This document shows, in pieces, positions 7,807-21,511 of a DNA stretch of 64,000 nucleotides. A program made the position numbers and the translations under genes. Every line of letters starts with the position of its first letter. Position 1 is the first letter of the stretch. The notes under the pieces were generated by a model. The model did not search any database, was not told where the DNA came from, and saw only the letters and a list, made by a program, of their open reading frames with translations. The DNA is from Desmospora activa DSM 45169 (lineage in GTDB: Bacteria; Bacillota; Bacilli; Thermoactinomycetales; DSM-45169). Location of the stretch: the NCBI RefSeq assembly GCF_003046315.1, contig NZ_PZZP01000004.1:58795-122794 (forward strand). The letters run 5' to 3'.

Positions 7807-7974
7807 GAAATACGATCAACCCACTATAGAAAGAGGCCTGAGAGCATGGTTCTTTCAGGTCCCTTTTATCTTCACACCATCTCATCGATGGCGCAGCCTT
7901 AACTTGAGAGTTGTCCAAAACAGAATTGGAGCTAACCACCTCATAATCCCGCATTTAGGGGCGATTGGAATCTC

Positions 7975-8018
7975 AAAAAACAAAAGAGAGACCCCTTTTT
8001 GCGGGATCTCTCTTTTGT
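7975..8018 (-). terminator. Rho-independent terminator for the 8-tRNA operon (minus strand)
   Basis: Hairpin aaaagagagatccc / ggggtctctctttt at plus 7983-8018. On the minus-strand RNA it is followed by GUUUUUUGAG. Confidence 0.55.
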
Positions 8019-8961: not shown

Positions 8962-9040
8962 AGGGTTTTTGATTTTTTTAGGGCATTGATTGTAAAAAAT
9001 CTTCCCCTCTTTGAGTGCTTTAACAGCTTAGCACAGGTTG

Positions 9041-9108
9041 ACTTTGCTCGTCAACCATATTTTTTAGTGAAGAAAGCATCGTTGACGGGTCGCAACAATG
9101 CTTTCTTC
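9041..9108. repeat. Two adjacent perfect or near-perfect hairpins. A 7-bp stem (ggttgac/gtcaacc) and a 16-bp stem (gaagaaagcatcgttg/caacaatgctttcttc).
   Basis: Lie between the M15 peptidase gene end and the tRNA promoter. The first is followed by a T-run on the plus strand and is terminator-like in plus orientation. Neither has a U-run in minus orientation. Confidence 0.5.
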
Positions 9109-9154
9109 AAATGAATGATCGAACTGAATCAAGTCAACCATCTTGGGTTATACT

Positions 9155-9883
9155 TTAGTCGACCCACCACCAGGATTGGGATCCGTAGGGGTATTCAATG
9201 CGACTATCCACATGGACAAACGAGCTATATCGTTGAATGCCGCTAAAGCCGCTCGATTTGGCGATATCGCGTACTTGTGCCGGAGTTCTTCCACTGACGA
9301 CGATATCTGCAGCCACCCCATATAGATGCATACTGTTGGAAGCGCCGCCTACATTGCTGTTATGGTTGATACTGCGAAAACCGGAATTGATCGTAATCGG
9401 GGAATCGCCTGCTTTTTTGCGGACCGCTTCCAGCTTCCACATCAACCGGCGCACATTTTCCCGCACGGTGGTGGAGTCCACCTTGCCGCCACTAAATCCA
9501 CTGCCATCTTTGGAATGAAATTCACTAAAGTTGAAATGGCGGGTGGAGCCGTCAGCAGCTTCCAAATTATTGAGCGCTTGTTGTGTAGCGGGTCCGACAA
9601 TGCCATCCGCAGCCAGACCATAAGCGCGCTGAAACCGCCGCACTGCCGCATCTGTTGCCGGACCGAATTGCCCGTCTACAGCCACATACGTACGACTGGG
9701 ACCGTCTGCCGCCCAACCGGCAACCCGGATCTGAAGCTCTCTAACATCCGCACCGCTATCCCCCTGCTTTAAGGTGCGTGTCCAATTGTAAGCGTCCGCT
9801 TGCACAGGTTGAAATACCAACGGCATTACCAACAGAAACGCCAACAGCCATGTCAAACCTTTCATCCCATATTTGGTTGCCAT
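9155..9883 (-). CDS. Secreted peptidoglycan-binding M15-family zinc peptidase (D-alanyl-D-alanine carboxypeptidase-like, Peptidase_M15_3)
   Basis: Signal peptide. PG_binding_1-like repeat (GDSGADVRELQIRVAGW...GQFGPATDAAVRRFQRAYGLAADGIVGPATQQAL) followed by an M15 core (SGFRS...H.YGVAADI...VHVD). Start placed at MATKYG because AGGAG lies 7 nt upstream. The ORF extends 24 nt further upstream without an RBS. Confidence 0.75.
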   Translation of the reverse strand: MATKYGMKGLTWLLAFLLVMPLVFQPVQADAYNWTRTLKQGDSGADVRELQIRVAGWAADGPSRTYVAVDGQFGPATDAAVRRFQRAYGLAADGIVGPATQQALNNLEAADGSTRHFNFSEFHSKDGSGFSGGKVDSTTVRENVRRLMWKLEAVRKKAGDSPITINSGFRSINHNSNVGGASNSMHLYGVAADIVVSGRTPAQVRDIAKSSGFSGIQRYSSFVHVDSRIEYPYGSQSWWWVD

Positions 9884-9932
9884 CTCTTTTCTCCTCTTTT
9901 CTTTCAAATATTTTCATTTATTAGAAAAAGGG

Positions 9933-10619
9933 TTAAACGGTTAATGTAGGAAGCGAATCCTTTTCCGCTGTTTTTTCAATCGGTACCCAACCTTCTTCCA
10001 CAGCCCGCACTGCTAGACCTACCCTGGAATTAACCCCCCATTTGCGAATGGCTGACGCGATATGAGAGTCAACAGTTCGCCGGCTGATTCCCAACTGATC
10101 GGCAATCTCCTGATTGGTAAGGTCCTTGACCAACTCCATCACCACTTGTTTTTCCATCGGAGTAAGCGGCGGAGAAACGAGGGACTGTTTGCGCCGAAGG
10201 AATCGTAACGGCAGTTGAATTTGATCGGTGAAACTGGGACTGATATAGCAACCGCCCCGGCTTACCGTCCACAAGGCAAAAAATAATTCGGACGCACGGC
10301 TGCGCACCGTTAGGGCCCATGCTCTCCCATGGAACATATGTAGCCACTTTTCCACCCGTTCCTCCTCTTCCGAGATCACAACCACGGGCACTGGCAAATG
10401 GGATAATTTAGTCCACTCAACCCCGTCATGACCCTGAGCACAGCCAAAAACGAACACATCCGGCAAGGGCACCCTTCTGATCAGCAATTGTTCCAACTGT
10501 TCCGGCTTCCAAATTGTCTCCTCTACACAAAACTGATCCTCCTGTTGCAACATCCATGCCACACCGTGCAATAGTGGCTCTACCGGGTCTAATACCCATA
10601 CGCGAAGCAGACCACCCAA
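9933..10619 (-). CDS. LuxR/GerE-family transcriptional regulator with a degenerate receiver-like N-terminal domain
   Basis: C-terminal HTH LTPMEKQVVMELVKDLTNQEIADQLGISRRTVDSHIASAIRKWGV. The N-terminal domain resembles a response-regulator receiver but lacks the phospho-acceptor Asp (VFVFGCAQ). Confidence 0.7.
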   Translation of the reverse strand: MGGLLRVWVLDPVEPLLHGVAWMLQQEDQFCVEETIWKPEQLEQLLIRRVPLPDVFVFGCAQGHDGVEWTKLSHLPVPVVVISEEEERVEKWLHMFHGRAWALTVRSRASELFFALWTVSRGGCYISPSFTDQIQLPLRFLRRKQSLVSPPLTPMEKQVVMELVKDLTNQEIADQLGISRRTVDSHIASAIRKWGVNSRVGLAVRAVEEGWVPIEKTAEKDSLPTLTV

Positions 10620-10751
10620 ACACTCTCACCCCTTTTTTACCCCACCCTCTCCTTTCCACAAGGATAATTCTATAATATTTTCAAAAAACCCTGCCAAATT
10701 AAACCGTTCAAATAAAAAATCAGCCGACTTTACAGAATATATTTTTCACAA

Positions 10752-10788
10752 CAAAAAAACCACCTGAACATCACGGTTCTGATGGTTT
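10752..10788 (-). terminator. Rho-independent terminator after moaC (end of the moeA-moaA-moaC operon)
   Basis: Imperfect hairpin accatcagaaccgtgatgttcaggtggt followed by UUUUUUUGUUG on the minus-strand RNA. Confidence 0.55.
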
Positions 10789-10797
10789 TTCACCATG

Positions 10798-11304
10798 TTA
10801 AGATTGATGATCGCTCAGCAGTGGACGGTATTTTCGATGATAATCCCCGTTCTTACCGCCGCTCTTGTACACCAGTAGGGTTTCTTCCACCACCATCGAT
10901 CGATCCACCGCTTTACACATATCGTAAAGGGTTAAAGCCGCCGCGCTAACAGCGGTCAATGCTTCCATCTCCACTCCTGTTACATGCTCCGTCTTTGCCT
11001 CAGCCTCAATCAGCAACCGCGTATCGCTTTCCAGCTTAAAGCGGATGTTGACACCACTGAGTGGCACTGGATGGCACATAGGAATCAACTCGGCCGTTTT
11101 TTTGGCAGCCATAATCCCCGCCACTTGAGCAACGGCCAATACATCCCCTTTCGCCATTCTGCCTGCGCGGATTTGCTCCATCGTCTCAGGCTTCATCCGT
11201 AGATGCGCTTGCGCCACGGCCGTTCGCGCTGTTACTTGCTTTCCGGACACGTCCACCATATGTGCCCGCCCTTGTTCATTGATGTGCGTAAATGATGGTT
11301 TCAC
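10798..11304 (-). CDS. moaC: Cyclic pyranopterin monophosphate synthase MoaC
   Basis: 168 aa. MVDVSGK...IPMCHPV...TGVEMEALTAVSAAALTLYDM core motifs. Confidence 0.9.
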   Translation of the reverse strand: MKPSFTHINEQGRAHMVDVSGKQVTARTAVAQAHLRMKPETMEQIRAGRMAKGDVLAVAQVAGIMAAKKTAELIPMCHPVPLSGVNIRFKLESDTRLLIEAEAKTEHVTGVEMEALTAVSAAALTLYDMCKAVDRSMVVEETLLVYKSGGKNGDYHRKYRPLLSDHQS

Positions 11305-11315
11305 TGTGTCGCCTC

Positions 11316-12338
11316 CTAGCCGCCGATATACGACATTTCCACTTTATTGTGTGTGCCATCCGCCCGCTGGGTACGTTCTTGTGAGTAACGATCTTTTCGG
11401 TGCAGCCAAACGTCACCGAGCAAGCGAGCCAATTGCTCATCCCCGGCACCATTGCGAAGGGATGTCCGTAAATCCGTACCCTGGGAAGCGAACAGGCAGG
11501 TGTATAGGTGCCCGTCAGCGGAAAGGCGAGCGCGGGTGCAGCTGCCGCAAAAGGGAGCGCTCACCGAAGCGATCACCCCCACTTGGGTTTGACTTCCCTC
11601 ATATCGGTAGCGATTAGCCACTTCACCGTGATAAGCGGGCTCCAAAGGGATCAACGGCATCTCTTTTCCGATACGTGCCAAAATCTCCTCCTTGGATACC
11701 ACTTGTGCTAGATCCCAACCATTGGTGTTACCCACATCCATAAATTCAATAAAACGCAACGTGTGCCCTTTTTCTTTAAAATAGCGGGCCATCGGCAGGA
11801 TTTCACCATCATTGACCCCTTTTTGTACCACCATGTTCACCTTTACCCGCAAACCGACGGCAGCAGCGGCATCAATCCCCGCCAAAACCTGTTTGACATC
11901 TCCTTTGCCCCCACTCATCCGGGCAAAGGTGTCGGCATGGAGAGCGTCTAAGCTGACGTTGACCCGATCCAGTCCCGCTTCCACCAACTCCTGCGCAAAC
12001 CGAGGCAACAATGTGCCGTTAGTGGTAAGAGCGATATCGTCAATTTCGGGAATCGTACTCACCATCCGGATCAAAGTGGGCAAATCTCTACGCAACAAAG
12101 GTTCCCCACCAGTTAACCGTATCTTTTTTACGCCAAAGTGGGTAAACAGTTTAACGAGACGAATAATCTCCTCAAATGTTAACAACTCATCCCGGGGCAA
12201 AAAGGGATAATCCGGGCCAAACACCTCAGCGGGCATGCAGTAACGGCAGCGGAAATTGCAGCGATCGGTGACGGAGACGCGGAGGTCCCGCAGCGGCCGT
12301 CCCAAGCGATCCACTCCCTTGATCGTGTCCGACTCCAT
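11316..12338 (-). CDS. moaA: GTP 3',8-cyclase MoaA (radical SAM)
   Basis: 340 aa. [10 protein letters not shown] radical-SAM cluster motif, C-terminal second cluster CGSC, GG tail. Confidence 0.9.
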
Positions 12339-12342
12339 TTAC

Positions 12343-14202
12343 TCACCCCCTGATGATAGTGGGTTTATCCAACCCTGACCGTTGTAACACTTTTCGTAAG
12401 GGTTGATCCTGCAGTAGTTGCAGCAAGATTTCTCCCTCTGTCTCCTTCAATAAGGAAGGGGTCACCAATAAAGAAAGGCGTCTCCGTGCGATTGGCAGAA
12501 AATCAACCGTATCGGCATATTCAGCAAAAGCAATCCCCCATGCCGCAGCGGCTCCTTCCCCGTATACAGCGGCGGCGGCCTTTAAATAAGACGGTTCTTC
12601 TTTTCGGTGCAATGGTATAGAAACACCGGCGTAGACAGCCGCTTTTTCCAAAAATATACGACCGGAGTGGCCGCTGGGGGGAAGAATCCAGTGAAGGTCC
12701 GATCGGTGCCAATCCTGAATACCGACAATCGCATCCGGATTTCCTTTTTGTACAATCCACCCCCAAGTTACATCCCCCAGCGGAAGGGCATGCGACAGGT
12801 CGGTATCCCTTTCCTCACATTCGGGTAGTGTGTCCGTGCCATCGGTTTCCACCACTACCGCCGCACAAGTCCCTTTTCGCCACCGATCCAAAGCATCCTG
12901 CATTCCCGTCACATACCGGGCTACGGCTCGCCCCGACTGCTTAGACCAAGCGGAGAGCAGAATATCCAAGGCGGGAGCATCCCCGCCCGCCACCAAAATC
13001 CGATCGCGTAGCAGCGAGAGTGGACGGGTTAAGCGTACCGATACGTTTTTGCCTGCCGTCCATTGACTACTATCCGCAGGCACCTTTATCCATCCGTCCG
13101 CCTGCGACAGAGAAAAGGTAACTCCTGCCCCTTTTGTCAGTGGAATTGCATCCCAATTTCCGTCCGGACCTGCCAGCAAGCGAACACGTAAATGGTCTTC
13201 CGCTCCCATTCGTGTATGGACAGGCTGACTTAGACGGGCGGGTACTTCTTCTTCATGGGAAGTACGCTCTCCCCGCCATTTCCGTATCCATGGTTTAGCG
13301 AACCACTCTAAGCCGAGATAAGCGGAGACAGGGTAACCCGGCAATCCCAATACCGGCTTCCCGGCGACAACCGCCAGTGCAGCGGGTTTACCTGGGCGGG
13401 CGGACACGCCGTGTACCAGTAAGGTGCCCATCTCCTTTAAAACGGAAGGAACAAAATCTTTTGCTCCTTTGGAGGAACCGGCGTTGACGATGACCAGATC
13501 CGACTGTTCCAAGGCATGTTCCAGTGTTTGTCGAATCAGGGCGGGATCGTCGGGAACAATGCCGCCATACCGGGTGATTGCTCCCCATTCCCGCAACGTT
13601 TCCCCCAGCAGTGTACTATTAAATTCAACAATCTCTCCCCGCTGCGGCTCTAACCCTGGCGGCACCAGTTCTCTACCTGTCGCGATGATAGTGACGAGCG
13701 GGCGTGTAAGCACGGGTACCTCCCACACACCACCAGCCAGAAGCACAGCCTGATCAACCGGACGAATCTTTTGTCCGGCAGACAGCAACACCTCCCCCGC
13801 CGCCACATCTTCCCCCGTCTGTCGCACATGTTGGAAGGAAGAAGCAGGACGGGTGATCGCCACACACCCCTCTCCCTCCACATTAACATGCTCCACCATA
13901 ATGACAGCATCCGCCCATGCAGGAATCGGATCACCCGTATTAATCCAGGCAAAATCTTCTCCTTCGCGCAATTTCATAGGTGTATGGGGTGACGCTGCCT
14001 GTGTCGCCTCCGATCGCACCGCGATCCCATCTATCGCGGAAGCGGAATAGGACGGCATCGACAGTTGGGCCTGCACCGGCTCTGCCATATATCGATTCCG
14101 TGCCTGCTGAGTCGGGATTCGCTCGATTCCGGGCCGGGGAGGGGCAGCCTGCAACAACCGGTCCAATGCTTCTTGTACAGTTACAGCACCGTCTTTTTCC
14201 AT
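12343..14202 (-). CDS. moeA: Molybdopterin molybdenumtransferase MoeA fused to a C-terminal periplasmic-binding-protein-like molybdate-binding domain (COG1910)
   Basis: N-terminal about 400 aa is MoeA (MoCF_biosynth core ...IIATGRELVPPG...VNAGSSKGAKDF..., MoeA_C). The C-terminal about 220 aa is PBP-like (LVAGGDAPALDILL...). Start set at MEKDGAVTVQEAL, with RBS GAGGGGG 5 nt upstream. The ORF extends 21 codons further without an RBS. Confidence 0.8.
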   Translation of the reverse strand: MEKDGAVTVQEALDRLLQAAPPRPGIERIPTQQARNRYMAEPVQAQLSMPSYSASAIDGIAVRSEATQAASPHTPMKLREGEDFAWINTGDPIPAWADAVIMVEHVNVEGEGCVAITRPASSFQHVRQTGEDVAAGEVLLSAGQKIRPVDQAVLLAGGVWEVPVLTRPLVTIIATGRELVPPGLEPQRGEIVEFNSTLLGETLREWGAITRYGGIVPDDPALIRQTLEHALEQSDLVIVNAGSSKGAKDFVPSVLKEMGTLLVHGVSARPGKPAALAVVAGKPVLGLPGYPVSAYLGLEWFAKPWIRKWRGERTSHEEEVPARLSQPVHTRMGAEDHLRVRLLAGPDGNWDAIPLTKGAGVTFSLSQADGWIKVPADSSQWTAGKNVSVRLTRPLSLLRDRILVAGGDAPALDILLSAWSKQSGRAVARYVTGMQDALDRWRKGTCAAVVVETDGTDTLPECEERDTDLSHALPLGDVTWGWIVQKGNPDAIVGIQDWHRSDLHWILPPSGHSGRIFLEKAAVYAGVSIPLHRKEEPSYLKAAAAVYGEGAAAAWGIAFAEYADTVDFLPIARRRLSLLVTPSLLKETEGEILLQLLQDQPLRKVLQRSGLDKPTIIRG

Positions 14203-14372
14203 GTGATCGCCCCCTCGCACACCCCTGATGTCGAATGATTCCAACGCTTTCTTTCTTAATAGCATAGCATCGCCTACCCATGCTGTCGAGGGAAGGTCAC
14301 TCGCAAGACTGGCAAATAGTCAGATATTCCTTTACAGTGAAAAAACATCGAAACGGAGTCCGACTTTTGTTA

Positions 14373-14435
14373 CAGTGTCTATAACACATTTTCACCGGAG
14401 GTGAGGGTTTAATGGAAGATACCCGACGATCAACA
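14373..14435 (+). repeat. Direct repeat copy 1, about 89% identical to 15083-15144. It duplicates the HisC-like promoter/RBS and first 7 codons, and ends in a 20-aa remnant ORF MEDTRRSTGKQGESSWRPFL.
   Basis: acagtgtctataacacattttcaccggaggtgagggtttaATGgaagatacccgacgatcaac versus acagtgtgtataacgtattttgccggaggtgaggatttaATGgaagatacccgactgtcaac. Confidence 0.8.
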
Positions 14436-14511
14436 GGAAAACAGGGTGAGAGCTCTTGGAGGCCGTTTCTTTAGCGGGTACTTCAATAAAAAGTAACGGG
14501 ATTAACCTTTT

Positions 14512-15057
14512 ATGACAGATCGATATGATTCTGTACACCTGGCCAGTAAGGATATCCAGCGAGCATGGCTGCTGCAGAACGAGGAGCGCGATCAGGATGG
14601 CAACACGACAAATTGGTGGCTGTCTATTATACAACCTGTAAGCACGCGAATCTCCTTCTTCTCTTCCGAACCATCAAAGGACGCATGGGCTCGATTCGCG
14701 GTAACTTCGATTGAAACCGCAGAAGAAGTCGGTGCTATCTCTGCCGACGAGGCATCGATCAGGCTTTCAAACTTAAGCGTTGTGCTAACTCGGGCAAGAT
14801 TCAACCCTGAGAAAATCGACCCCGCTCTGGCTTCAAAAAATATCATCCATCGCGCATTGACTTGCATCGATCTCACTCATGCAGAAGCGAGCCAGAAGAG
14901 TCGAAATTGGCCAGAGCAACCGATCGAAACCACTCGTTCATTAAGGCGTATCAAGAACTTGATACGGCCCGTTCTTCCGCTTGTCGATCACGTCCACGAC
15001 GAGAAATTGAAGCAACGACTGGCGCAGTGGCGGGATCTGTTACCCCAACTTCCATAG
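14512..15057 (+). CDS. Hypothetical protein (181 aa, no recognisable domain) flanked by the 62-bp direct repeats
   Basis: Uninterrupted 546-nt ORF in about 50% GC DNA. Weak RBS. No similarity recognised to known families. Confidence 0.45.
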   Translation: MTDRYDSVHLASKDIQRAWLLQNEERDQDGNTTNWWLSIIQPVSTRISFFSSEPSKDAWARFAVTSIETAEEVGAISADEASIRLSNLSVVLTRARFNPEKIDPALASKNIIHRALTCIDLTHAEASQKSRNWPEQPIETTRSLRRIKNLIRPVLPLVDHVHDEKLKQRLAQWRDLLPQLP

Positions 15058-15082
15058 ATGGAAACAAAGGTGTAAGTTTATC

Positions 15083-15144
15083 ACAGTGTGTATAACGTAT
15101 TTTGCCGGAGGTGAGGATTTAATGGAAGATACCCGACTGTCAAC
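15083..15144 (+). repeat. Direct repeat copy 2: the functional promoter/RBS/start region of the HisC-like gene
   Basis: See copy 1. Contains GGAGGTGAGG RBS and the ATG at 15122. Confidence 0.8.
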
Positions 15145-16276
15145 GTCCGCAAAGGCGGAAAAACGTGCTCCTTTTTCAAATCTGGTTAACGCACTCCCGG
15201 CGACCGTTCCATTTGTCCCTCCTGAACAAACGGAGCGGCAGCTGGGACGCCGCTTCCAGCTGAGACTGGGTGCCAACGAGAGCTCCTTTGGATTATCACC
15301 CATGGCCAAGCAGGCTTTGATCGACGCCGCCGCTGAAACAAACTGGTACGGCGACGCCACCAATGATGCGTTACGGCAAAAGTTATCCAGGCTACATGGA
15401 GTTCCCATGGAATCTATCGCCGTCGGAGCAGGAATCGATGAGATTTTGGGCTGGATCGCTCGTCTCTTTTTAAACCCTGGAGATGGGGTAACAACGTCCC
15501 ACGGCAGTTATCCTACTTTTCATTATCATGTAAACGGATTTGGCGGCGTTCTCCATTGGGTTCCTTATCGCCATTTTTACAACGATTGCGAGGGGTTGGC
15601 CCGACAAGCGCATGCCACCGGTTCGCGCATCGTTTATCTCGCCAATCCCGATAACCCTACCGGCACCTTTTTAAAACAAGAGGATATCCGGGAACTGCGG
15701 CGACAACTGCCTGCCGATTGTGTATTGGTGATCGATGAAGCATACGTTGAATTTGCACCGGCTGAGGATGTGCTGCCCCTGGATGCAAATGATCCCAATG
15801 TGATCCGTACCCGCACCTTTTCTAAAGTGTACGGTCTCGCCGGGGCCCGGGTCGGTTACGCCATCGCCCACCCGGATACAATCGCCAGCTTTGATAAAAT
15901 CCGCAACCACTTCGGCGTGGCACGGGCCGCACAACAGGCAGCATTAGCCTCTCTTGCGGATTCCGATTTTCTTAATCGCGTCATCGCCTTCGTCAATGAA
16001 GGGAAAACGGATTACAGTACCCTAGCACAAGAGCTGGGCTATACCACTCTTCCCTCTGCCACCAATTTTGTTGCCATCGATACCGGCAGTGAAAAAGCGG
16101 CGCGTTGGTGGATGGATGCGCTGGAAAAACAGGGTGTATTTATCCGTGTTCCCGGTGTCGCCCCGTTAAATCGGTGCCTGCGGATTACCGTCGGAAATCA
16201 AGAAGAACGAAACATCTTGGCCCACCACATGAAAAAATTGAAACCCCAGGTACCGATCAACGAAGAAACGCGATGA
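15122..16276 (+). CDS. Histidinol-phosphate aminotransferase family protein (class II PLP aminotransferase; HisC/CobD-like)
   Basis: 385 aa. YLANPDNPTG, VIDEAY, TFSKVYGLAGARVGY (PLP-Lys) motifs. Start at MEDTRL, with GGAGGTGAGG 5 nt upstream. The ORF extends 12 codons further upstream. Confidence 0.8.
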   Translation: MEDTRLSTSAKAEKRAPFSNLVNALPATVPFVPPEQTERQLGRRFQLRLGANESSFGLSPMAKQALIDAAAETNWYGDATNDALRQKLSRLHGVPMESIAVGAGIDEILGWIARLFLNPGDGVTTSHGSYPTFHYHVNGFGGVLHWVPYRHFYNDCEGLARQAHATGSRIVYLANPDNPTGTFLKQEDIRELRRQLPADCVLVIDEAYVEFAPAEDVLPLDANDPNVIRTRTFSKVYGLAGARVGYAIAHPDTIASFDKIRNHFGVARAAQQAALASLADSDFLNRVIAFVNEGKTDYSTLAQELGYTTLPSATNFVAIDTGSEKAARWWMDALEKQGVFIRVPGVAPLNRCLRITVGNQEERNILAHHMKKLKPQVPINEETR

Positions 16277-16349
16277 GCAGCCAACAAGGGCCGACCTCCG
16301 CATGAGGCCTGTCAAGTCGCGTGAATCCAACAAATCCACCTACATCAAA

Positions 16350-16384
16350 CCCCAGCCTCCCATATCCGGGAGCCGGGGTTTTTC
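16350..16384 (+). terminator. Rho-independent terminator after the HisC-like gene
   Basis: ccccagcctccc-atatcc-gggagccgggg followed by TTTTTC. Confidence 0.6.
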
Positions 16385-16428
16385 TTCCTCTCAATATAAT
16401 CATGGAATAAGAGCCGTCAAGTAAAACA

Positions 16429-17049
16429 TCAGGAAGCGTCATCATCGGTATGGGCAAGGGTACGTTTAAGAGCGGAGCGAAGCTCGTCCATCATCCCTTC
16501 CATCATCCGTTTCCGTTCATCCCAGGGGAATTGGGGCACCGTCTGTCGTAATTCATTCATTTTTCGTTGGTCGTACTCCATCAGTTCCAACAATGATTCA
16601 CACGCTTGTACCAATGCATTCCAATCTTCCTGTGGAATTTCCACGCGGTCATCCTCTTCTTCTAGATATGAGTTGCGCACGGGTTCATCCTCTCCATTCT
16701 CTTCAACCTCTATTTCATCATTTTGGAGAGCCTTTACCTCCAAGCGATAGTGACCGCTCTCCCGTAAAGTTAAATCCAAGCCGCCTTCGCTTACTTCAAT
16801 TCGTTGGATCATGCGCTGCTCCTCCGGTATTTGTTCCAAATACCCGACGATCAGATCAAACAATAAATAGGTGATTTCCTGTTCTTTCCCCAATCGATCC
16901 AACCTCCTCGCCCAAGCGTATATAGAATCGAATGAAAATATCAGCAGACTCATTAACGGGTTTGGATCATGCCATGTTTCTCTGTCACTTGCCAATCGGG
17001 TTGGTGGTGGTTCACAATAGAAAATATGATTTCCCAATGTATTGCGCAT
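16429..17049 (-). CDS. Hypothetical acidic protein (206 aa), divergent from moaDE
   Basis: Long ORF with GAAGG RBS. Very acidic C-terminal half (EIEVEENGEDEPVRNSYLEEEDDRVEIPQEDW). No family recognised. Confidence 0.45.
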   Translation of the reverse strand: MRNTLGNHIFYCEPPPTRLASDRETWHDPNPLMSLLIFSFDSIYAWARRLDRLGKEQEITYLLFDLIVGYLEQIPEEQRMIQRIEVSEGGLDLTLRESGHYRLEVKALQNDEIEVEENGEDEPVRNSYLEEEDDRVEIPQEDWNALVQACESLLELMEYDQRKMNELRQTVPQFPWDERKRMMEGMMDELRSALKRTLAHTDDDAS

Positions 17050-17123
17050 AAGACAACCTTCGGTAAAGCAGTTTGCGCCGACGGATAATAAAAGAAGGGA
17101 GGCTGGCGCTCAGCCCTAAAACC

Positions 17124-17831
17124 ATGGAAATTCGCATTCTATTATTTGCGGCAGTAGCCGAAGCCATCGGTCAACGGTCGATTACCCTTAAACTGCCTGC
17201 ACAAGCGTCTGTGCGTGATGTGATTCAACAGTTGGAACATCAGTACCCGGACGCCTCCGAACTGATCCGCGTCGCCGTCATCGCCCGTAATCAGGAATAC
17301 GCCGAATTGGATGAGACAATTCTTCCCGGAGACGAAATTGCCCTGATCCCACCGGTAAGCGGTGGAGAGGCGGAGGAAGCGTCCTTATTTACCATCACGG
17401 AGGAACCCCTGTCTGCTGACCGCCTCATTGCGCTCGTCTCCAACCCCAGAGCCGGAGCGGTACTCACGTTTGCCGGAACAGTGCGGGAGTTTACCGCCGA
17501 TCGGCGCACGATCCATCTGGAATATGAAGCATATGGCCCCATGGCAACCCAGAAAATGAAAGCGATCGCGGCGGAGATCCATCAACGGTGGCCGGATGTG
17601 CGCGTCGCCATGACACATCGGGTAGGAAAGCTGGAGCCGGAGGAAATTAGCGTCCTGATCGCCGTCGCTTCCCCTCATCGGCCGGAATCCTTTGCAGCGG
17701 GTCGTTATGCAATTGAGCGCTTAAAACAGACCGTTCCCATCTGGAAAAAGGAGATCTGGGAAGACGGCACACAATGGCTGGGTCCACAAACCGATCACTG
17801 GGATCCTCGAAAACCCGCGAATCCCTCATAA
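17124..17831 (+). CDS. moaDE: Molybdopterin synthase MoaD-MoaE fusion (sulfur-carrier plus catalytic subunit)
   Basis: N-terminal about 80 aa is a MoaD ubiquitin-like domain ending ...IALIPPVSGG. Then a MoaE domain (LTFAGTVREF...YEAYGPMA...WPDVRVAMTHRVGKL...PHRPESFAAGRYAIERLK). ATG 17124 chosen. The ORF tool starts at TTG 17073 instead. Confidence 0.8.
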   Translation: MEIRILLFAAVAEAIGQRSITLKLPAQASVRDVIQQLEHQYPDASELIRVAVIARNQEYAELDETILPGDEIALIPPVSGGEAEEASLFTITEEPLSADRLIALVSNPRAGAVLTFAGTVREFTADRRTIHLEYEAYGPMATQKMKAIAAEIHQRWPDVRVAMTHRVGKLEPEEISVLIAVASPHRPESFAAGRYAIERLKQTVPIWKKEIWEDGTQWLGPQTDHWDPRKPANPS

Positions 17832-17861
17832 CCCATCCCTTCCAGCAAAGGAGGTGCTACC

Positions 17862-18893
17862 ATGTCCATTCCACATGGTCGTTTTTCCAGGCAGATCTTG
17901 TTTTCCCCGATTGGAGAAAGGGGACAAGCGGCACTGGCCCGGGCAAACGTGGCTATCGTCGGCATCGGCGCTTTGGGTACCGCCCTGGCTCACCATCTAG
18001 TACGAGCAGGAGTGGGTCACCTTCGCATCATTGACCGCGATTTTGTGGAAGAGAGCAATCTGCAGCGACAAATGCTGTTTACAGAGAAAGATGCAGAAGA
18101 CTCCATGCCCAAAGCGATCGCCGCCCGCGATCACCTGCAAACAATCAACTCCGCTGCCGACATAACGGCCCATGTAGCCGACCTGACCTGGCGTAACGCC
18201 GAAGAGTTGCTTACCGATGTCGACCTAATCTTAGACGGCAGCGATAATTTCTCCGTTCGCTATTTGATCAACGATACAGCTGTAAAGCACGGGATCCCAT
18301 GGATTTACGGCGGAGCAGTCAGCTCGCGAGGAATGACCTTCACCATTCGTCCAGGAATCACACCCTGTCTCGCTTGCCTCTTCCCGGAAATCCCTGCTCC
18401 TGGAACGACGGAAACCTGTGATACCGCCGGTGTGATTGGACCCGTAGTGCAGGTGGTGGCCGCTTACCAGGCAGCGGAGGCACTTAAGCTGTTGGTAGGG
18501 GATACGGATGCTCTCGATTCCCGCCTGCGCCATTTTGAACTGTGGCACAACCGGGATGGCGCATTGCAAGTGGCTCCGAGCAAACGAGAACATTGCCCGG
18601 TATGTAAACAGGGGGAATATAAACACTTGCATCCATCCAACCCCACTGATACCGCTGTTTCCCTCTGTGGCCGCAACACGGTACAAGTGTCATCAGCAAG
18701 CACCCTCGATTTAGATCGGTTGGAACACCGCCTCTCCTCACTGGGTACAGTGGAGCGAAATCGCTTTTTGCTTCGCGCCCAGGTGGATGAGCAGCACCGT
18801 TTGGTGATTTTCCCCGACGGACGGGTACTGGTGCAAGGCACCGATCAAGCGGAAACAGCTCGTTCCCTCGTAGCCCGTTACATCGGAGCGTAA
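17862..18893 (+). CDS. moeB: Molybdopterin-synthase adenylyltransferase MoeB (ThiF/MoeB family; no rhodanese domain)
   Basis: 343 aa. GIGALGTALAHHLVRAGVGHLRIIDRDFVEESNLQRQ Rossmann/ThiF motif. CxxC...CPVC zinc site. Confidence 0.85.
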   Translation: MSIPHGRFSRQILFSPIGERGQAALARANVAIVGIGALGTALAHHLVRAGVGHLRIIDRDFVEESNLQRQMLFTEKDAEDSMPKAIAARDHLQTINSAADITAHVADLTWRNAEELLTDVDLILDGSDNFSVRYLINDTAVKHGIPWIYGGAVSSRGMTFTIRPGITPCLACLFPEIPAPGTTETCDTAGVIGPVVQVVAAYQAAEALKLLVGDTDALDSRLRHFELWHNRDGALQVAPSKREHCPVCKQGEYKHLHPSNPTDTAVSLCGRNTVQVSSASTLDLDRLEHRLSSLGTVERNRFLLRAQVDEQHRLVIFPDGRVLVQGTDQAETARSLVARYIGA

Positions 18894-18938
18894 AACCAAA
18901 CCCAGCGATTACGCAAAGGTCGCTGGGTTTGGTTTTTT
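18894..18938. terminator. Bidirectional terminator between moeB and the convergent dehydrogenase gene. 15-bp perfect stem.
   Basis: aaccaaacccagcga-ttacgcaaagg-tcgctgggtttggtt followed by TTTT. Confidence 0.7.
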
Positions 18939-19842
18939 ACTCATCACCAGGCGCCACCTTAACATTGGCCAGCCGTTCCATCACTGTGATTAAGGCGTGA
19001 GTGCCGTCTTCATTTCCACCGTGGGCCTGCACAGAACGAAGCAGTTGATTGGCGGTCGCCGTTCCCACCAGCGGCAATTGGAGACGTTCGGCTTCCTCCA
19101 GCACAATGCGTAAATCTTTTTGTTGGAATTGAACGGAAAAACCAGGATCCAGGTCTCCTTCTACTATCCGTGGACCCAAATTGGACAAGGCCCACGATCC
19201 AGCCGCACCCTTACTAGTCACCTGAATCATTGTATCCAGATCCACCCCGGCCTTTTTCGCCAATGTTAATGCTTCCACCATTCCCAACAAGTTTAATCCA
19301 CACATAATCTGGTTGCACGCCTTTACCGTCTGACCTGCACCGGCGGCGCCACAATGAATGATACTGGAACCCATCGCTTGCAAAACCGGCTTCACTTCTT
19401 CCAGCACAGCCGCTTCCCCACCTACCATAATGGAAAGCGTCCCTTCTTGTGCACCGACATCCCCACCGCTGACGGGAGCATCCAACATCCGCACACCCCG
19501 CTCTGCCGCCGTCTTGGCTAGCTGCTGCGTTGTGGCAGGGGAGATGGTGCTCATATCGATCCAGACAAGCCCTTGATGAGCACCGGCCAGGATTCCGTTT
19601 TCCCCTTCCACTACTGCACGCACATCCGGTGTATCTCCTACGATGGTGATCACCACATCGCTCAACTCCGCCACTTCCCGCGGTGAGTCCGCTAGTTGTG
19701 CGCCCCATCCCGCTGCTTCCTCCATCTTGGACCGGGTGCGATTCCAGACCGTCACTTGGAATCCGGCGCGATGAAGATTATATGACATCGACCGCCCCAT
19801 AATCCCCAAACCGATAAACCCCACTCGCTGTGCTGTCTCCAT
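18937..19842 (-). CDS. NAD(P)-dependent 3-hydroxyisobutyrate / 2-hydroxy-3-oxopropionate reductase family dehydrogenase (GarR/YkwC-like)
   Basis: 301 aa. GFIGLGIMG Rossmann motif, HIBADH family core. Confidence 0.8.
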   Translation of the reverse strand: METAQRVGFIGLGIMGRSMSYNLHRAGFQVTVWNRTRSKMEEAAGWGAQLADSPREVAELSDVVITIVGDTPDVRAVVEGENGILAGAHQGLVWIDMSTISPATTQQLAKTAAERGVRMLDAPVSGGDVGAQEGTLSIMVGGEAAVLEEVKPVLQAMGSSIIHCGAAGAGQTVKACNQIMCGLNLLGMVEALTLAKKAGVDLDTMIQVTSKGAAGSWALSNLGPRIVEGDLDPGFSVQFQQKDLRIVLEEAERLQLPLVGTATANQLLRSVQAHGGNEDGTHALITVMERLANVKVAPGDE

Positions 19843-19861
19843 TGAAATACTCCTTTCCCTT

Positions 19862-20422
19862 TTATCCCATTCGCTCTTGAAACCGTTCCTTCAGGCTCCG
19901 TTCCACCGCTTGCCACCATTCCCGTTTTTCCAACAACTGTTGCCTAAAATCCTTATATAGAGCCCGTTGCTTTTCCTTAAACATCGGGTCTTCCGAAGAG
20001 GGAAGTTGGGCCCGTATCGCATCGATCGCCGTCTGTACCTCAGGCGCACGCGGTCCCCACACCACCCGTTCCTCTCCTTTATCGTCGATAAAAATAAAAA
20101 TCGGAATTGACCGTGATTTTCCATTGGTCAAATATTGATCCATCAATTCCAGATTCTCATCGCGAATCAGATAACGCATCTCAATCCCGGCCTTCTCCGC
20201 GATTCGCATCACGATAGGGACACACATCATCGCATCTCCGCACCAATCCGCCGTCAACACGATGCCCCGTAGTCGCCGGTTGGCTAACTCAGAAAAATAT
20301 GCTTCACTTTCCTGCGGTTGAAAAGAACGGTAGATCTCCAGCAGGGCTTCGCGGTTTACTTCCATGCTGTCGATATACGCTTGCCCTGTCATCCCCTGCT
20401 CAAACCATTGATCGAGATTCAT
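19862..20422 (-). CDS. Thioredoxin-fold family protein
   Basis: About 186 aa. ...TADWCGDAMMC... thioredoxin-like fold. Start at the second ATG (MNLDQW) because GAGGGAGGG lies 8 nt upstream. Confidence 0.55.
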   Translation of the reverse strand: MNLDQWFEQGMTGQAYIDSMEVNREALLEIYRSFQPQESEAYFSELANRRLRGIVLTADWCGDAMMCVPIVMRIAEKAGIEMRYLIRDENLELMDQYLTNGKSRSIPIFIFIDDKGEERVVWGPRAPEVQTAIDAIRAQLPSSEDPMFKEKQRALYKDFRQQLLEKREWWQAVERSLKERFQERMG

Positions 20423-20575
20423 GTTTTTCACCCTCCCTCATCCTCTTTATATTGTAACGGATGTCACTTTAGATGTCCCTACAATCCCCGTTGCCTATTC
20501 TGAACAATATCGATACAATTAGGAAATAATATTTGCTTCGATTCTCTAAAAAGCTGGACAAAAAGGATGGATCTT

Positions 20576-21511
20576 ATGAAGCACAACACCATTGGACTGT
20601 ATAGCATCATGACCTTTAATATGATGATTTGGGGCCTAAACGCAGTGGCTCTCAAAATATTAGTCACCCACTTCCCTGCAGTCACCATGCAGGGAGTGCG
20701 TATTTTTTTGGCTGGACTGGTGTTATTGCTGTATATCGTGATAAAAAGAACGTGGAAACCACTCACCAAAAGAGATTGGGGTTGGACTATCGGTATCATA
20801 CTGACCGGTGTGGTAGGTCATCACCTTTTTCTTGCCTGGGGGCTGACGATCACCACCGCCTCCAACGCCGCACTAATTTTAAGCTTGGTCCCGTTGATGA
20901 CCGCCTTTCTTTCCTTTTTATTTCTGCGGGAACATATCACCCCGGCACGCATGGGTGGGATTCTGCTTGGCCTCATCGGCGTTATCCTGGTCGTTCTTCG
21001 CGGCGGCACTGGCCTGTCCACTTCCATGTGGGGAGATCTTTTGATCGGGGGAGCGATGATCTTCCAAGCATGCAGCTTTATTTTAATCAAGAAGGCAACA
21101 GACACCATCGACGCCAAACAATTGACAACCATTATGTTTCTGGCTGGCGCGACACTGATCTTTCTCATCGGCCTGTTCATCTCTCCTGATGGCGTATCGA
21201 TCATGCTGGAAGGACCGTTGTGGGTATGGGCTGTTTTAATCGTATCGGGGGTCGTGGCTACAGCTTGGGGACACGCGATGTACAATGCGACCATCCACCA
21301 ACTGGGCCCAGGCCAAACCGCTGTCTTTATCAACTTAACTCCCTTTTTTGCCTTAGTGGGTTCCGCACTCTTTCTCGGTGAAGCAATACAATGGGTGCAA
21401 ATCGCCGGATTCGCATTAATCATCGTCGGAGTTTTCCTTGGCACTGGAGCCTGGGGCGAAGGGGAACGGATGAAAGCGCGAACCGTTCATAGAGAGACGG
21501 GTATTCATTGA
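20576..21511 (+). CDS. DMT-superfamily (EamA-like) transporter
   Basis: 10 predicted TM helices in two EamA repeats. Start at MKHNTIG, with RBS AAAGGATGG. Confidence 0.7.
   Translation: MKHNTIGLYSIMTFNMMIWGLNAVALKILVTHFPAVTMQGVRIFLAGLVLLLYIVIKRTWKPLTKRDWGWTIGIILTGVVGHHLFLAWGLTITTASNAALILSLVPLMTAFLSFLFLREHITPARMGGILLGLIGVILVVLRGGTGLSTSMWGDLLIGGAMIFQACSFILIKKATDTIDAKQLTTIMFLAGATLIFLIGLFISPDGVSIMLEGPLWVWAVLIVSGVVATAWGHAMYNATIHQLGPGQTAVFINLTPFFALVGSALFLGEAIQWVQIAGFALIIVGVFLGTGAWGEGERMKARTVHRETGIH

What the first reader, a model, noticed from the sequence alone, without database searches (positions are those of the whole stretch)
14373..15144. Unknown 181-aa ORF inserted between two 62-bp direct repeats that duplicate the promoter/RBS/start of a HisC-like gene, inside the Moco cluster
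The segment acagtgt.tataac..attttg/caccGGAGGTGAGG.tttaATGgaagatacccgac..tcaac occurs twice, 710 bp apart, with about 89% identity. Copy 2 is the real 5' end of the aminotransferase gene. Copy 1 ends in a 20-codon dead-end ORF (MEDTRRSTGKQGESSWRPFL*) and is followed by an unrelated 181-aa ORF with no recognisable domain. The arrangement looks like an insertion event that duplicated a long target segment. It could be attL/attR-like cores of a decayed integrative element or a promoter-capturing cassette, not normal operon architecture. The whole unit also splits moeA-moaA-moaC from moaDE-moeB.
Basis: seen in the sequence. Interest (0 to 1): 0.7.

Follow-up and report, generated by a model that had tools for sequence, protein, structure and literature searches.

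The report
Orphan immunity gene inserted with promoter duplication
In Desmospora activa a stray "antidote" gene of a bacterial toxin system has been inserted at the very start of an aminotransferase gene, and a 63-base duplication of that gene's ribosome-binding site and start codon kept the aminotransferase intact; this is a tidy but fairly ordinary example of gene acquisition.

Summary
A 63/62-nt segment (14372-14434 and 15083-15144, about 87% identical with one indel) occurs exactly twice. It carries a clade-conserved upstream block, a strong Shine-Dalgarno sequence, the ATG and the first 7 codons of the HisC-like aminotransferase.

Four related lineages (5 loci) have the same gene order, moaC-moaA-moeA | aminotransferase | small conserved ORF | moaDE | moeB (Kroppenstedtia's contig ends just after the aminotransferase). 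All have one copy of the segment and no ORF181. So about 648 nt (14435-15082) is a D. activa-specific insertion with target duplication. The aminotransferase's place inside the Moco cluster is ancestral.

ORF181 is not an ORFan. Exhaustive HMMER finds 129 representative proteins of about 180 aa, mostly actinomycete, none in Pfam or NCBIfam. The AlphaFold model is confident (pLDDT 96, all-alpha). In 6 of 7 foreign contexts the homologue starts at or overlaps the end of one homologous, unannotated C-terminal toxin domain of Rhs/YD/PT-HINT polymorphic toxins. One homologue is fused to Imm1.

ORF181 is therefore best read as an orphan immunity gene, probably expressed from the aminotransferase promoter. 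No integrase, terminal inverted repeats, hairpin or RNA family supports an att-site or riboswitch reading. How the insertion happened is unresolved. Interest is moderate to low.

The parts
12343..14202 (-). moeA fused to a PBP_like domain, the left neighbour, transcribed divergently. The likely start is ATG 14202 (SD -17.6 kcal/mol) rather than 14265. Its conserved promoter-like block (TCGACA-17-TATGCT on the minus strand, 14289-14261) lies left of the duplication and is untouched.
14348..14376 (+). Putative aminotransferase promoter, inferred and not demonstrated: -35 TCGAAA (14348-14353), 17-nt spacer ending in TGT, -10 TACAGT (14371-14376). These positions are conserved in all four related lineages aligned in A2. 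The consensus scan did not list it because it matches only 8 of 12 positions.
   Evidence: alignment A2, reading
14372..14434 (+). Repeat copy 1 (63 nt): the right part of the conserved upstream block, strong SD GGAGGTGA, ATG 14412 and 7 aminotransferase codons. It carries more derived changes than copy 2 relative to the 81%-identity relative.
14412..14474 (+). 20-codon mini-ORF (MEDTRRS + 13 codons read from the insert, then TAG). It is the relic of the aminotransferase start and has a strong SD (-15.4 kcal/mol).
14435..15082 (+). Inserted segment X (648 nt, GC 0.49). It is absent from all relatives, has no other copy in the window, and has no terminal inverted repeats. It holds 77 nt before ORF181 and 25 nt after it. 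Its last 29 nt (15054-15082) show weak in-register similarity to 14343-14371.
14512..15057 (+). ORF181, a predicted orphan immunity protein of a polymorphic-toxin system. It is full length, keeps all invariant family residues (W36, L144, R145, W173, L180, P181), is all-alpha, and has a weak SD of its own (-5.1 kcal/mol).
15083..15144 (+). Repeat copy 2 (62 nt): the functional SD, ATG 15122 and first codons of the aminotransferase. Upstream it has only a degenerate promoter equivalent (TGGAAA-17-CACAGT, no TG).
15122..16276 (+). HisC-like class I/II PLP aminotransferase. The best NCBIfam model is PRK08153, below its cut-off. Its position next to moeA is conserved in Desmospora and Kroppenstedtia.

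Best explanation
After the D. activa lineage split from its closest sampled relative (81% aminotransferase identity), a foreign fragment of about 648 nt landed just after codon 7-8 of the HisC-like aminotransferase gene. The fragment carried a complete immunity-type gene of a polymorphic-toxin (Rhs/YD/PT-HINT) system but not its toxin.

The event also duplicated 63 nt of the target: part of the promoter/5'-UTR, the Shine-Dalgarno sequence, the ATG and 7 codons. The downstream copy therefore regenerates an intact, translatable aminotransferase. The upstream copy became a 20-codon dead-end ORF. This part is shown by comparison with relatives.

The following steps are inferred:
- ORF181 is now transcribed from the aminotransferase promoter, whose full -35/-10 region lies upstream of copy 1. 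It is the first real gene of a new bicistronic unit, since no terminator lies before the aminotransferase.
- ORF181 has a weak SD because in its native setting it is translationally coupled to the toxin gene. Here the strongly initiated mini-ORF, which ends 37 nt upstream, may deliver ribosomes to it.
- The protein binds and neutralises an incoming toxin domain of the family found upstream of its homologues, protecting D. activa from competitors. That is the role of an orphan immunity gene.
- The insertion itself was most likely a single illegitimate event, such as repair of a staggered break or a replicative template switch. It was retained because the duplication spared the aminotransferase. 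It was not the act of a dedicated mobile element.
For: Insertion and duplication:
- The repeat is exact in position and significant.
- L081, D. profundinema L082/L083, L084/L085 and Kroppenstedtia L001 all have moeA (or moaA) directly divergent from the aminotransferase, one copy of the segment and no ORF181. tblastn finds no ORF181 in those loci.
- Copy 1's left flank and copy 2's right flank match the relatives' contiguous sequence.

Real protein:
- 129 representatives at E<=1e-3, aligned end to end.
- Invariant residues are kept. Identity to the Saccharopolyspora homologue is 44%.
- AlphaFold pLDDT is 96 and pTM 0.91.

Immunity role:
- The homologue overlaps the stop codon of an Rhs/YD/PT-HINT toxin gene in L086, L090, the P0126 contig and L091.
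- The same C-terminal toxin domain lies directly upstream in L087 and L089, although no gene was called there. That makes 6 of 7 contexts.
- The toxin domains are homologous to each other (E 2e-30; alignment A3).
- One homologue is fused to Imm1, PF14430.
- Orphan immunity genes that protect against non-self effectors are an established category (PMC10539506 and PMC12247911, abstracts).

Orphan status: no toxin C-terminal domain is found in the 64-kb window.

Expression model:
- SD strengths are -15.4 kcal/mol for both repeat copies and -5.1 kcal/mol for ORF181.
- No plus-strand terminator-like site lies between 14324 and 15447.
Against: - No expression data exist, and the promoter is inferred only from conservation. 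It scores 8 of 12 against the sigma-70 consensus and was not listed by the scan.
- Immunity function rests on gene position and one fusion, not on an assay.
- The cognate toxin domain is itself uncharacterised, with no Pfam, NCBIfam or PDB match.
- One homologue (L088) has no toxin domain upstream.
- Orphan status could be checked only within the 64-kb window.
- The mechanism that produced a 63-nt duplication is not identified, and the donor sequence is unknown. The closest homologue is only 45% identical.
- The 11% divergence between the copies, and copy 2's left part being identical to the L081-type sequence, would also fit a donor-borne replacement segment.
Confidence: 0.68

Rival explanations
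1. The two copies are attL/attR of a site-specific integrative element or cassette, either a decayed island or a cis-mobilisable element moved in trans by a recombinase. In this reading the element carried its own replacement copy of the aminotransferase 5' end.
For: - Direct repeats flank a foreign gene, and relatives show the empty site.
- The copies share an uninterrupted 20-nt identical core that could be a crossover site.
- Left of that core, copy 2 is identical to the L081-type sequence while copy 1 is not. This is as expected if that part was imported.
- Two Streptomyces homologues lie beside integrase/RepSA/FtsK integrative elements.
Against: - The 648-nt insert is almost entirely ORF181 and has no integrase fragment in any frame.
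- It has no terminal inverted repeats or hairpin.
- Genes within about 6 kb on both sides are the same housekeeping genes as in relatives.
- No second occupied site was found in any relative, metagenome or phage record.
- The pattern of differences is equally explained by faster decay of the now useless copy 1.
Confidence: 0.1
2. ORF181 is a real family member but is silent or decaying cargo. On this view the insertion is a neutral scar with no current function.
For: - Its own SD is weak.
- It has the lowest codon-adaptation value among 13 local genes, 0.64 against 0.70-0.78.
- No cognate toxin is seen nearby.
Against: - The ORF is full length with every invariant residue intact, even though the flanking repeats have diverged 11%. 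That argues for purifying selection.
- GC3 equals the host's.
- It sits directly behind a conserved promoter region and a strongly translated leader.
Confidence: 0.12
3. The repeat is a shared cis-regulatory RNA leader (riboswitch or attenuator) that independently precedes two genes, not an insertion scar.
For: It lies in 5'-UTR position before two ORFs inside a cofactor-biosynthesis cluster.
Against: - No Rfam match at E<=1 in 9000-21000.
- Folding energies are no better than shuffles, with z from -0.5 to +1.0.
- The repeat includes 7 coding codons.
- There are only two copies in the window, and relatives have one copy.
Confidence: 0.02
4. A tandem duplication of the aminotransferase 5' region occurred first, and the first copy's interior later diverged or was replaced.
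For: Direct repeats 710 nt apart are the geometry of a tandem duplication.
Against: - The 648 nt between the copies has no similarity to the aminotransferase gene or to anything else in the window.
- That segment encodes a foreign protein family.
Confidence: 0.03

Closest known systems
Orphan immunity genes of polymorphic toxin systems (Rhs, CDI, T6SS and T7SS effectors), including acquired interbacterial defence clusters
   Same: ORF181 is a small cytoplasmic-looking protein. Its homologues sit immediately after, and often overlap, one specific toxin C-terminal domain on Rhs/YD/PT-HINT proteins. Here it occurs without the toxin, as described for orphan immunity genes (PMC10539506, PMC3150448 and PMC12247911).
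   Different: - It is not in an rhs or effector locus, nor in an immunity array or recombinase-associated island. It is a single gene wedged into the start of a housekeeping aminotransferase inside a Moco cluster, flanked by a 63-nt target duplication.
- Neither the immunity family nor the toxin domain is in Pfam or NCBIfam.
- The host is a Thermoactinomycetaceae firmicute, whereas the named homologues are from actinomycetes.
Integrative elements that insert into a gene end and restore it with an element-borne copy (phage or ICE attL/attR at tRNA or protein-gene ends; cis-mobilisable elements)
   Same: Direct repeats bracket foreign DNA. One repeat reconstitutes the interrupted gene's end, and related genomes show the unoccupied site.
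   Different: There is no integrase, excisionase or any other element gene. The cargo is a single 546-nt ORF, the repeats are 87% and not 100% identical, and no other occupied site is known.
Target-site duplications of IS elements, transposons or MITEs
   Same: A duplicated target sequence flanks an insert.
   Different: The duplication is 63 nt, against the 2-14 nt typical of transposases (from general knowledge). There are no terminal inverted repeats and no transposase.
Orphan toxin-CT/immunity modules downstream of rhs or cdiA genes
   Same: Homologues in L087 and L089 are exactly such modules, a toxin C-terminal fragment plus immunity gene without a delivery domain. In those arrays, repeats of the conserved upstream sequence flank each displaced module.
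   Different: In D. activa no recognisable toxin-CT coding sequence remains in the 77 nt upstream of ORF181. The repeated sequence is the recipient's own promoter/RBS, not an rhs core fragment.

Membership tests
Polymorphic-toxin immunity protein family (as an orphan copy) | Gene lies immediately downstream of, and on the same strand as, the toxin's C-terminal domain | tested here: met
   Met for the family. In 6 of 7 foreign contexts the toxin C-terminal domain ends at or overlaps the homologue's start. The D. activa copy itself has no toxin upstream, which is what defines an orphan.
Polymorphic-toxin immunity protein family (as an orphan copy) | The immunity family co-occurs with one particular toxin domain family | tested here: met
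   The upstream toxin C-terminal domains of L086, L087, L089, L090 and L091 are all homologous (40-60% identity, E 1e-23 to 1e-43) on different delivery scaffolds: WXG100-Rhs, Rhs-PT-HINT, PT-HINT alone, or the C-terminal domain alone.
Polymorphic-toxin immunity protein family (as an orphan copy) | Fusion or tandem arrangement with other known immunity domains | tested here: met
   P0155 is this domain fused to Imm1, PF14430, at E 1.5e-20.
Polymorphic-toxin immunity protein family (as an orphan copy) | The protein binds and neutralises the cognate toxin | not testable with these tools
Polymorphic-toxin immunity protein family (as an orphan copy) | No cognate toxin elsewhere in the same genome (true orphan) | tested here: inconclusive
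   No toxin C-terminal domain is found in the 64-kb window. The rest of the D. activa genome could not be searched.
Site-specific integrative element (attL/attR) | Integrase or recombinase gene, or its remnant, within or beside the element | tested here: not met
   The insert holds only ORF181. Neighbours within about 6 kb are the conserved Moco and housekeeping genes.
Site-specific integrative element (attL/attR) | Identical core sequence shared by both junctions | tested here: inconclusive
   A 20-nt identical stretch exists within otherwise 87%-identical repeats. This is compatible with a core but equally with an ordinary diverging duplication.
IS, MITE or transposon insertion | Terminal inverted repeats and a short (2-14 nt) target-site duplication | tested here: not met
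   There are no inverted repeats at the insert ends, and the duplication is 63 nt.
Integron or rAID-type gene cassette | attC-like imperfect hairpin at the cassette end and an adjacent tyrosine recombinase | tested here: not met
   There is no hairpin or significant structure in 15030-15140 or 14395-14530, no inverted repeats and no recombinase within the conserved syntenic neighbourhood.
Riboswitch or cis-regulatory leader | Match to an RNA family, or a conserved stable structure | tested here: not met
   Rfam gives nothing at E<=1, and the fold z-scores are not significant.

The most novel reading that the evidence does not exclude
The 63-nt repeats could be the recombination sites of a minimal, trans-mobilised immunity-gene cassette. 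Alternatively, they could reflect a recurrent insertion mechanism with long target duplication that places orphan immunity genes behind resident promoters while regenerating the interrupted gene's start. Either would be a previously undescribed route for spreading interbacterial defence genes in Gram-positive bacteria. Separately, the toxin C-terminal domain and ORF181 family would be a new, uncharacterised toxin-immunity pair shared between actinomycetes and Thermoactinomycetaceae.
Probability: 0.07. Interest if true: 0.7.

Novelty: new member of a known kind. Interest (0 to 1): 0.38.

Why it matters
- It shows, with both junctions and the empty ancestral site in hand, how a single defence (immunity) gene can be added to a genome by landing inside the start of a housekeeping gene without destroying it. 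The long target duplication supplies a second ribosome-binding site and start codon, and the newcomer inherits the resident promoter.
- It flags an unannotated toxin-domain/immunity-protein pair. The immunity family has about 130 representative clusters, and neither partner has a Pfam, NCBIfam or PDB counterpart. The pair is carried on Rhs, WXG100-Rhs and PT-HINT scaffolds and could be characterised experimentally.
- It corrects the impression that the Moco cluster was split by a mobile unit. The aminotransferase and the small downstream ORF are ancestral residents of the cluster in this clade.

Tried and rejected
- The word-indexed protein search found only the D. activa protein itself, so ORF181 first looked like an ORFan. 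The exhaustive HMMER search overturned this. A profile search in the indexed database recovered only 6 members.
- ORF181 and 41 family members gave nothing meaningful in Pfam or NCBIfam.
- Rfam and single-sequence folding gave no RNA element.
- I looked for extended homology beyond the repeat. There is none on the right. On the left it is only weak and in register (scoring parameters chosen after seeing the data).
- I looked for a toxin C-terminal remnant in the 77 nt upstream of ORF181. One frame reads ...RALGGRFFSGYFNKK*, which shares the order G-R-F-G-F with the toxin tails but needs several gaps, so it is not demonstrable.
- A 20-mer of the repeat gave no hits in JGI metagenomes.
- ORF181 gave no match in phage records and a single Streptomyces match (24% identity) in plasmid records.
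- The viral-contig search with the family alignment failed for lack of a conserved 7-10-residue block.
- The tandem-duplication and riboswitch readings were rejected, as set out under the rival explanations.

Full report
**Source and observation**

The window is from Desmospora activa (Thermoactinomycetaceae). ORF181 and the aminotransferase are 100% identical to NCBI proteins of that species.

- Copy 1 is 14372-14434 and copy 2 is 15083-15144 (63 and 62 nt).
- There are 55 identities, 7 mismatches and one 1-nt indel, with 711/710-nt spacing.
- A 33-nt core occurs exactly twice in the 64 kb and never in shuffles.
- Each copy holds a strong Shine-Dalgarno sequence (GGAGGTGA, -15.4 kcal/mol against the 16S tail), an ATG and 7 codons (MEDTR..).
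- Copy 1's ATG (14412) runs into a stop after 20 codons (14474). Copy 2's ATG (15122) starts the 384-aa class I/II aminotransferase.

**Comparative test**

I recovered the aminotransferase's closest relatives with their contigs:
- a Logan contig at 81% identity (L081);
- D. profundinema at 72% (L082, L083);
- a 66% relative (L084, L085);
- Kroppenstedtia sanguinis at 58% (L001).

Where the contigs reach that far, the order is moaC-moaA-moeA(-) | aminotransferase(+) | small ORF(-) | moaDE | moeB. The intergenic region before the aminotransferase is about 80-225 nt, and none contains ORF181. tblastn confirms its absence.

Alignment of the intergenic regions (raw sequence) shows a single copy of the repeated segment. 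It is preceded by the sequence that precedes copy 1 in D. activa (AAAAACATCGAAACGG..CAACTTTTGTTACAGTG). It is followed by the sequence that follows copy 2 (..GCTCCTTTTTC..CTGG, encoding PFSxLV).

So the ancestral state was left flank, one copy, right flank. D. activa gained 14435-15082 plus a second copy. Two further points follow:
- The aminotransferase and the small downstream ORF (window 16429-17049, minus strand, 62-64% identical to the relatives' 154-155-aa ORFs) are ancestral residents of this Moco cluster. They are not part of the insertion.
- Copy 2 is closer than copy 1 to the L081 sequence, with about 5 against 9 differences over 43 nt.

**What the inserted gene is**

The indexed search made ORF181 look like an ORFan. 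Reading every sequence with HMMER gave 129 representative proteins at E<=1e-3. Nearly all are about 180 aa and aligned end to end. The best is from Saccharopolyspora shandongensis at 44-45% identity. The named members are from Streptomyces and Allocatelliglobosispora.

- A 41-member alignment has invariant W36, L144, R145, W173 and the C-terminal L180-P181, all present in ORF181.
- AlphaFold with that alignment gives pLDDT 96 and pTM 0.91, with ten helices.
- No Pfam, NCBIfam or PDB family matches.

**Genomic context of homologues**

- In Saccharopolyspora the gene overlaps (ATGA) the stop of a 1489-aa WXG100/DUF6531/RHS/YD-shell protein that follows EspC-like and YbaB genes.
- In Streptomyces sp. 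NPDC051704 it overlaps the end of a 2325-aa RHS/PT-HINT protein.
- In a JGI contig it overlaps a 1350-aa DUF6531/RHS protein.
- In another JGI contig it overlaps a 374-aa PT-HINT protein.

The last 110-130 residues of these toxins are homologous to each other (42-54% identity, E 2e-30). tblastn with them finds the same domain immediately upstream of the family gene in two further loci where no gene had been called (L087 5640-6020, L089 487-861). These are classic orphan toxin-CT/immunity modules.

So 6 of 7 foreign contexts pair this family with one toxin domain on varied delivery scaffolds. One homologue is fused to the immunity domain Imm1. The toxin domain itself has no Pfam, NCBIfam or PDB match.

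The family genes are consistently lower in GC than their hosts (0.49-0.57 against 0.61-0.69 in five of six loci; the sixth is 0.65 against 0.68). ORF181's GC of 0.50 and GC3 of 0.52, which equal D. activa's, therefore say little about its age or donor.

No toxin domain is detectable in the 64-kb window or in the 77 nt preceding ORF181. ORF181 is therefore best described as an orphan immunity gene, a known category (PMC10539506, PMC3150448, PMC12247911).

**How it probably works (inference)**

The positions conserved across the clade upstream of the aminotransferase fit a promoter: TCGAAA, then 17 nt, then TGn-TA(C/G)AGT, at 14348-14376. The consensus scan did not list it because it matches only 8 of 12 positions.

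The duplication starts inside the -10 element. Only copy 1 therefore has the complete promoter. Copy 2 has a degenerate equivalent, TGGAAA-17-CACAGT.

No terminator-like site lies between copy 1 and the aminotransferase. The simplest model is one transcript: mini-ORF, ORF181, aminotransferase.

ORF181's own SD is weak (-5.1 kcal/mol, against -12 to -18 for most neighbours). This fits a gene that is natively translationally coupled to its toxin gene. Here the strongly initiated mini-ORF ends 37 nt upstream and may partly replace that coupling.

The duplicated SD and ATG are what keep the aminotransferase translatable. Without them, an insertion after codon 7-8 would have cut the gene off from its start. 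The long duplication is therefore likely to be the reason this particular insertion survived.

**How it arose (unresolved)**

- The repeat's right edge is sharp, with no similarity beyond it.
- To the left there is weak in-register similarity: 14343-14371 against 15054-15082, 16 of 29 matches, reached by about 0.2% of shuffles. The scoring parameters were chosen after seeing the data. This could be patchy homology that guided an illegitimate junction, a longer original duplication (about 92 nt) whose left part was remodelled, or chance.
- The insert has no terminal inverted repeats, no hairpin, no recombinase remnant and no second copy in the window.
- A 63-nt duplication is far longer than transposase target-site duplications.

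I therefore favour a one-off illegitimate event, either fill-in repair of a staggered break or a replicative template switch. A site-specific, att-like origin is a minor alternative. In its favour are a 20-nt identical core and an L081-like left part of copy 2. Against it, there is nothing in the insert except ORF181.

The riboswitch or leader reading and the tandem-duplication reading are contradicted.

**Verdict**

The 'unknown ORF' resolves to an orphan immunity-type gene of an unannotated toxin-immunity pair. The 'decayed integrative element' and 'splits the Moco cluster' readings are not supported.

This is a new member of a known kind, with an unusually clean and slightly unusual insertion architecture. 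Interest is moderate to low.

Noticed in passing
L090 7642-8001; L086 5631-6011; L091 6612-7001; L087 5640-6020; L089 487-861: A conserved toxin C-terminal domain of about 120 aa (motifs KW.V, HS..T.G.PV.AAGEA, SGH..P, GI.F) sits at the end of Rhs, WXG100-Rhs and PT-HINT proteins. It has no Pfam, NCBIfam or PDB match and is always followed by the ORF181-family gene. In L087 and L089 it is an uncalled orphan toxin-CT fragment.
   Followed up: partly
L082 about 7948-8004 (D. profundinema): The conserved SD and ATG that start the aminotransferase in D. activa, L081 and L084 open an 18-codon upstream ORF here (MHMNPTLVPHSSGRRGDG*). Its TGA overlaps the annotated aminotransferase ATG (ATGA). The same leader is therefore used as a coupled upstream ORF in a sister species.
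   Followed up: no
window 16429-17049 (-), true start probably near 16893: A conserved hypothetical ORF lies between the aminotransferase and moaDE. It is 62-64% identical to the 154-155-aa ORFs at the same position in D. profundinema and L084, has no Pfam or NCBIfam hit, and is glutamate-rich. It appears to be a clade-specific resident of the Moco cluster with unknown function.
   Followed up: partly
window 15122-16276 (+); loci L002-L080: Outside Thermoactinomycetaceae, the closest genome hits of the aminotransferase are almost all Alphaproteobacteria (Roseovarius, Celeribacter, Rhizobium) at 46-54% identity. It matches NCBIfam PRK08153 better than hisC and is below both cut-offs. It is probably not the housekeeping HisC, and its role beside moeA is unexplained.
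   Followed up: no
window 12343-14265 (-) and 17073-17831 (+): MoeA is fused to a C-terminal PBP_like (PF12727) domain (about 620-640 aa), and MoaD (ThiS fold) is fused to MoaE (252 aa). Both fusions are conserved in the Desmospora relatives.
   Followed up: no
L086 6697-10982; L087 708-2529: In two Streptomyces genomes an actinomycete integrative element (tyrosine integrase, HTH_17, RepSA, FtsK/SpoIIIE) lies directly beside the Rhs toxin/immunity module that contains the ORF181 homologue.
   Followed up: no
L086-L091 (family genes): ORF181-family genes are much lower in GC than their actinomycete host loci (0.49-0.57 against 0.61-0.69 in five of six cases), consistent with frequent horizontal movement of the module.
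   Followed up: partly
window 18892-19023 (-): There are sub-threshold Rfam matches (ohsC_RNA at 33 bits, antisense SR1 at 27 bits, E about 0.06) in the short convergent gap between moeB and the dehydrogenase gene. This is probably a terminator region matching by chance.
   Followed up: no
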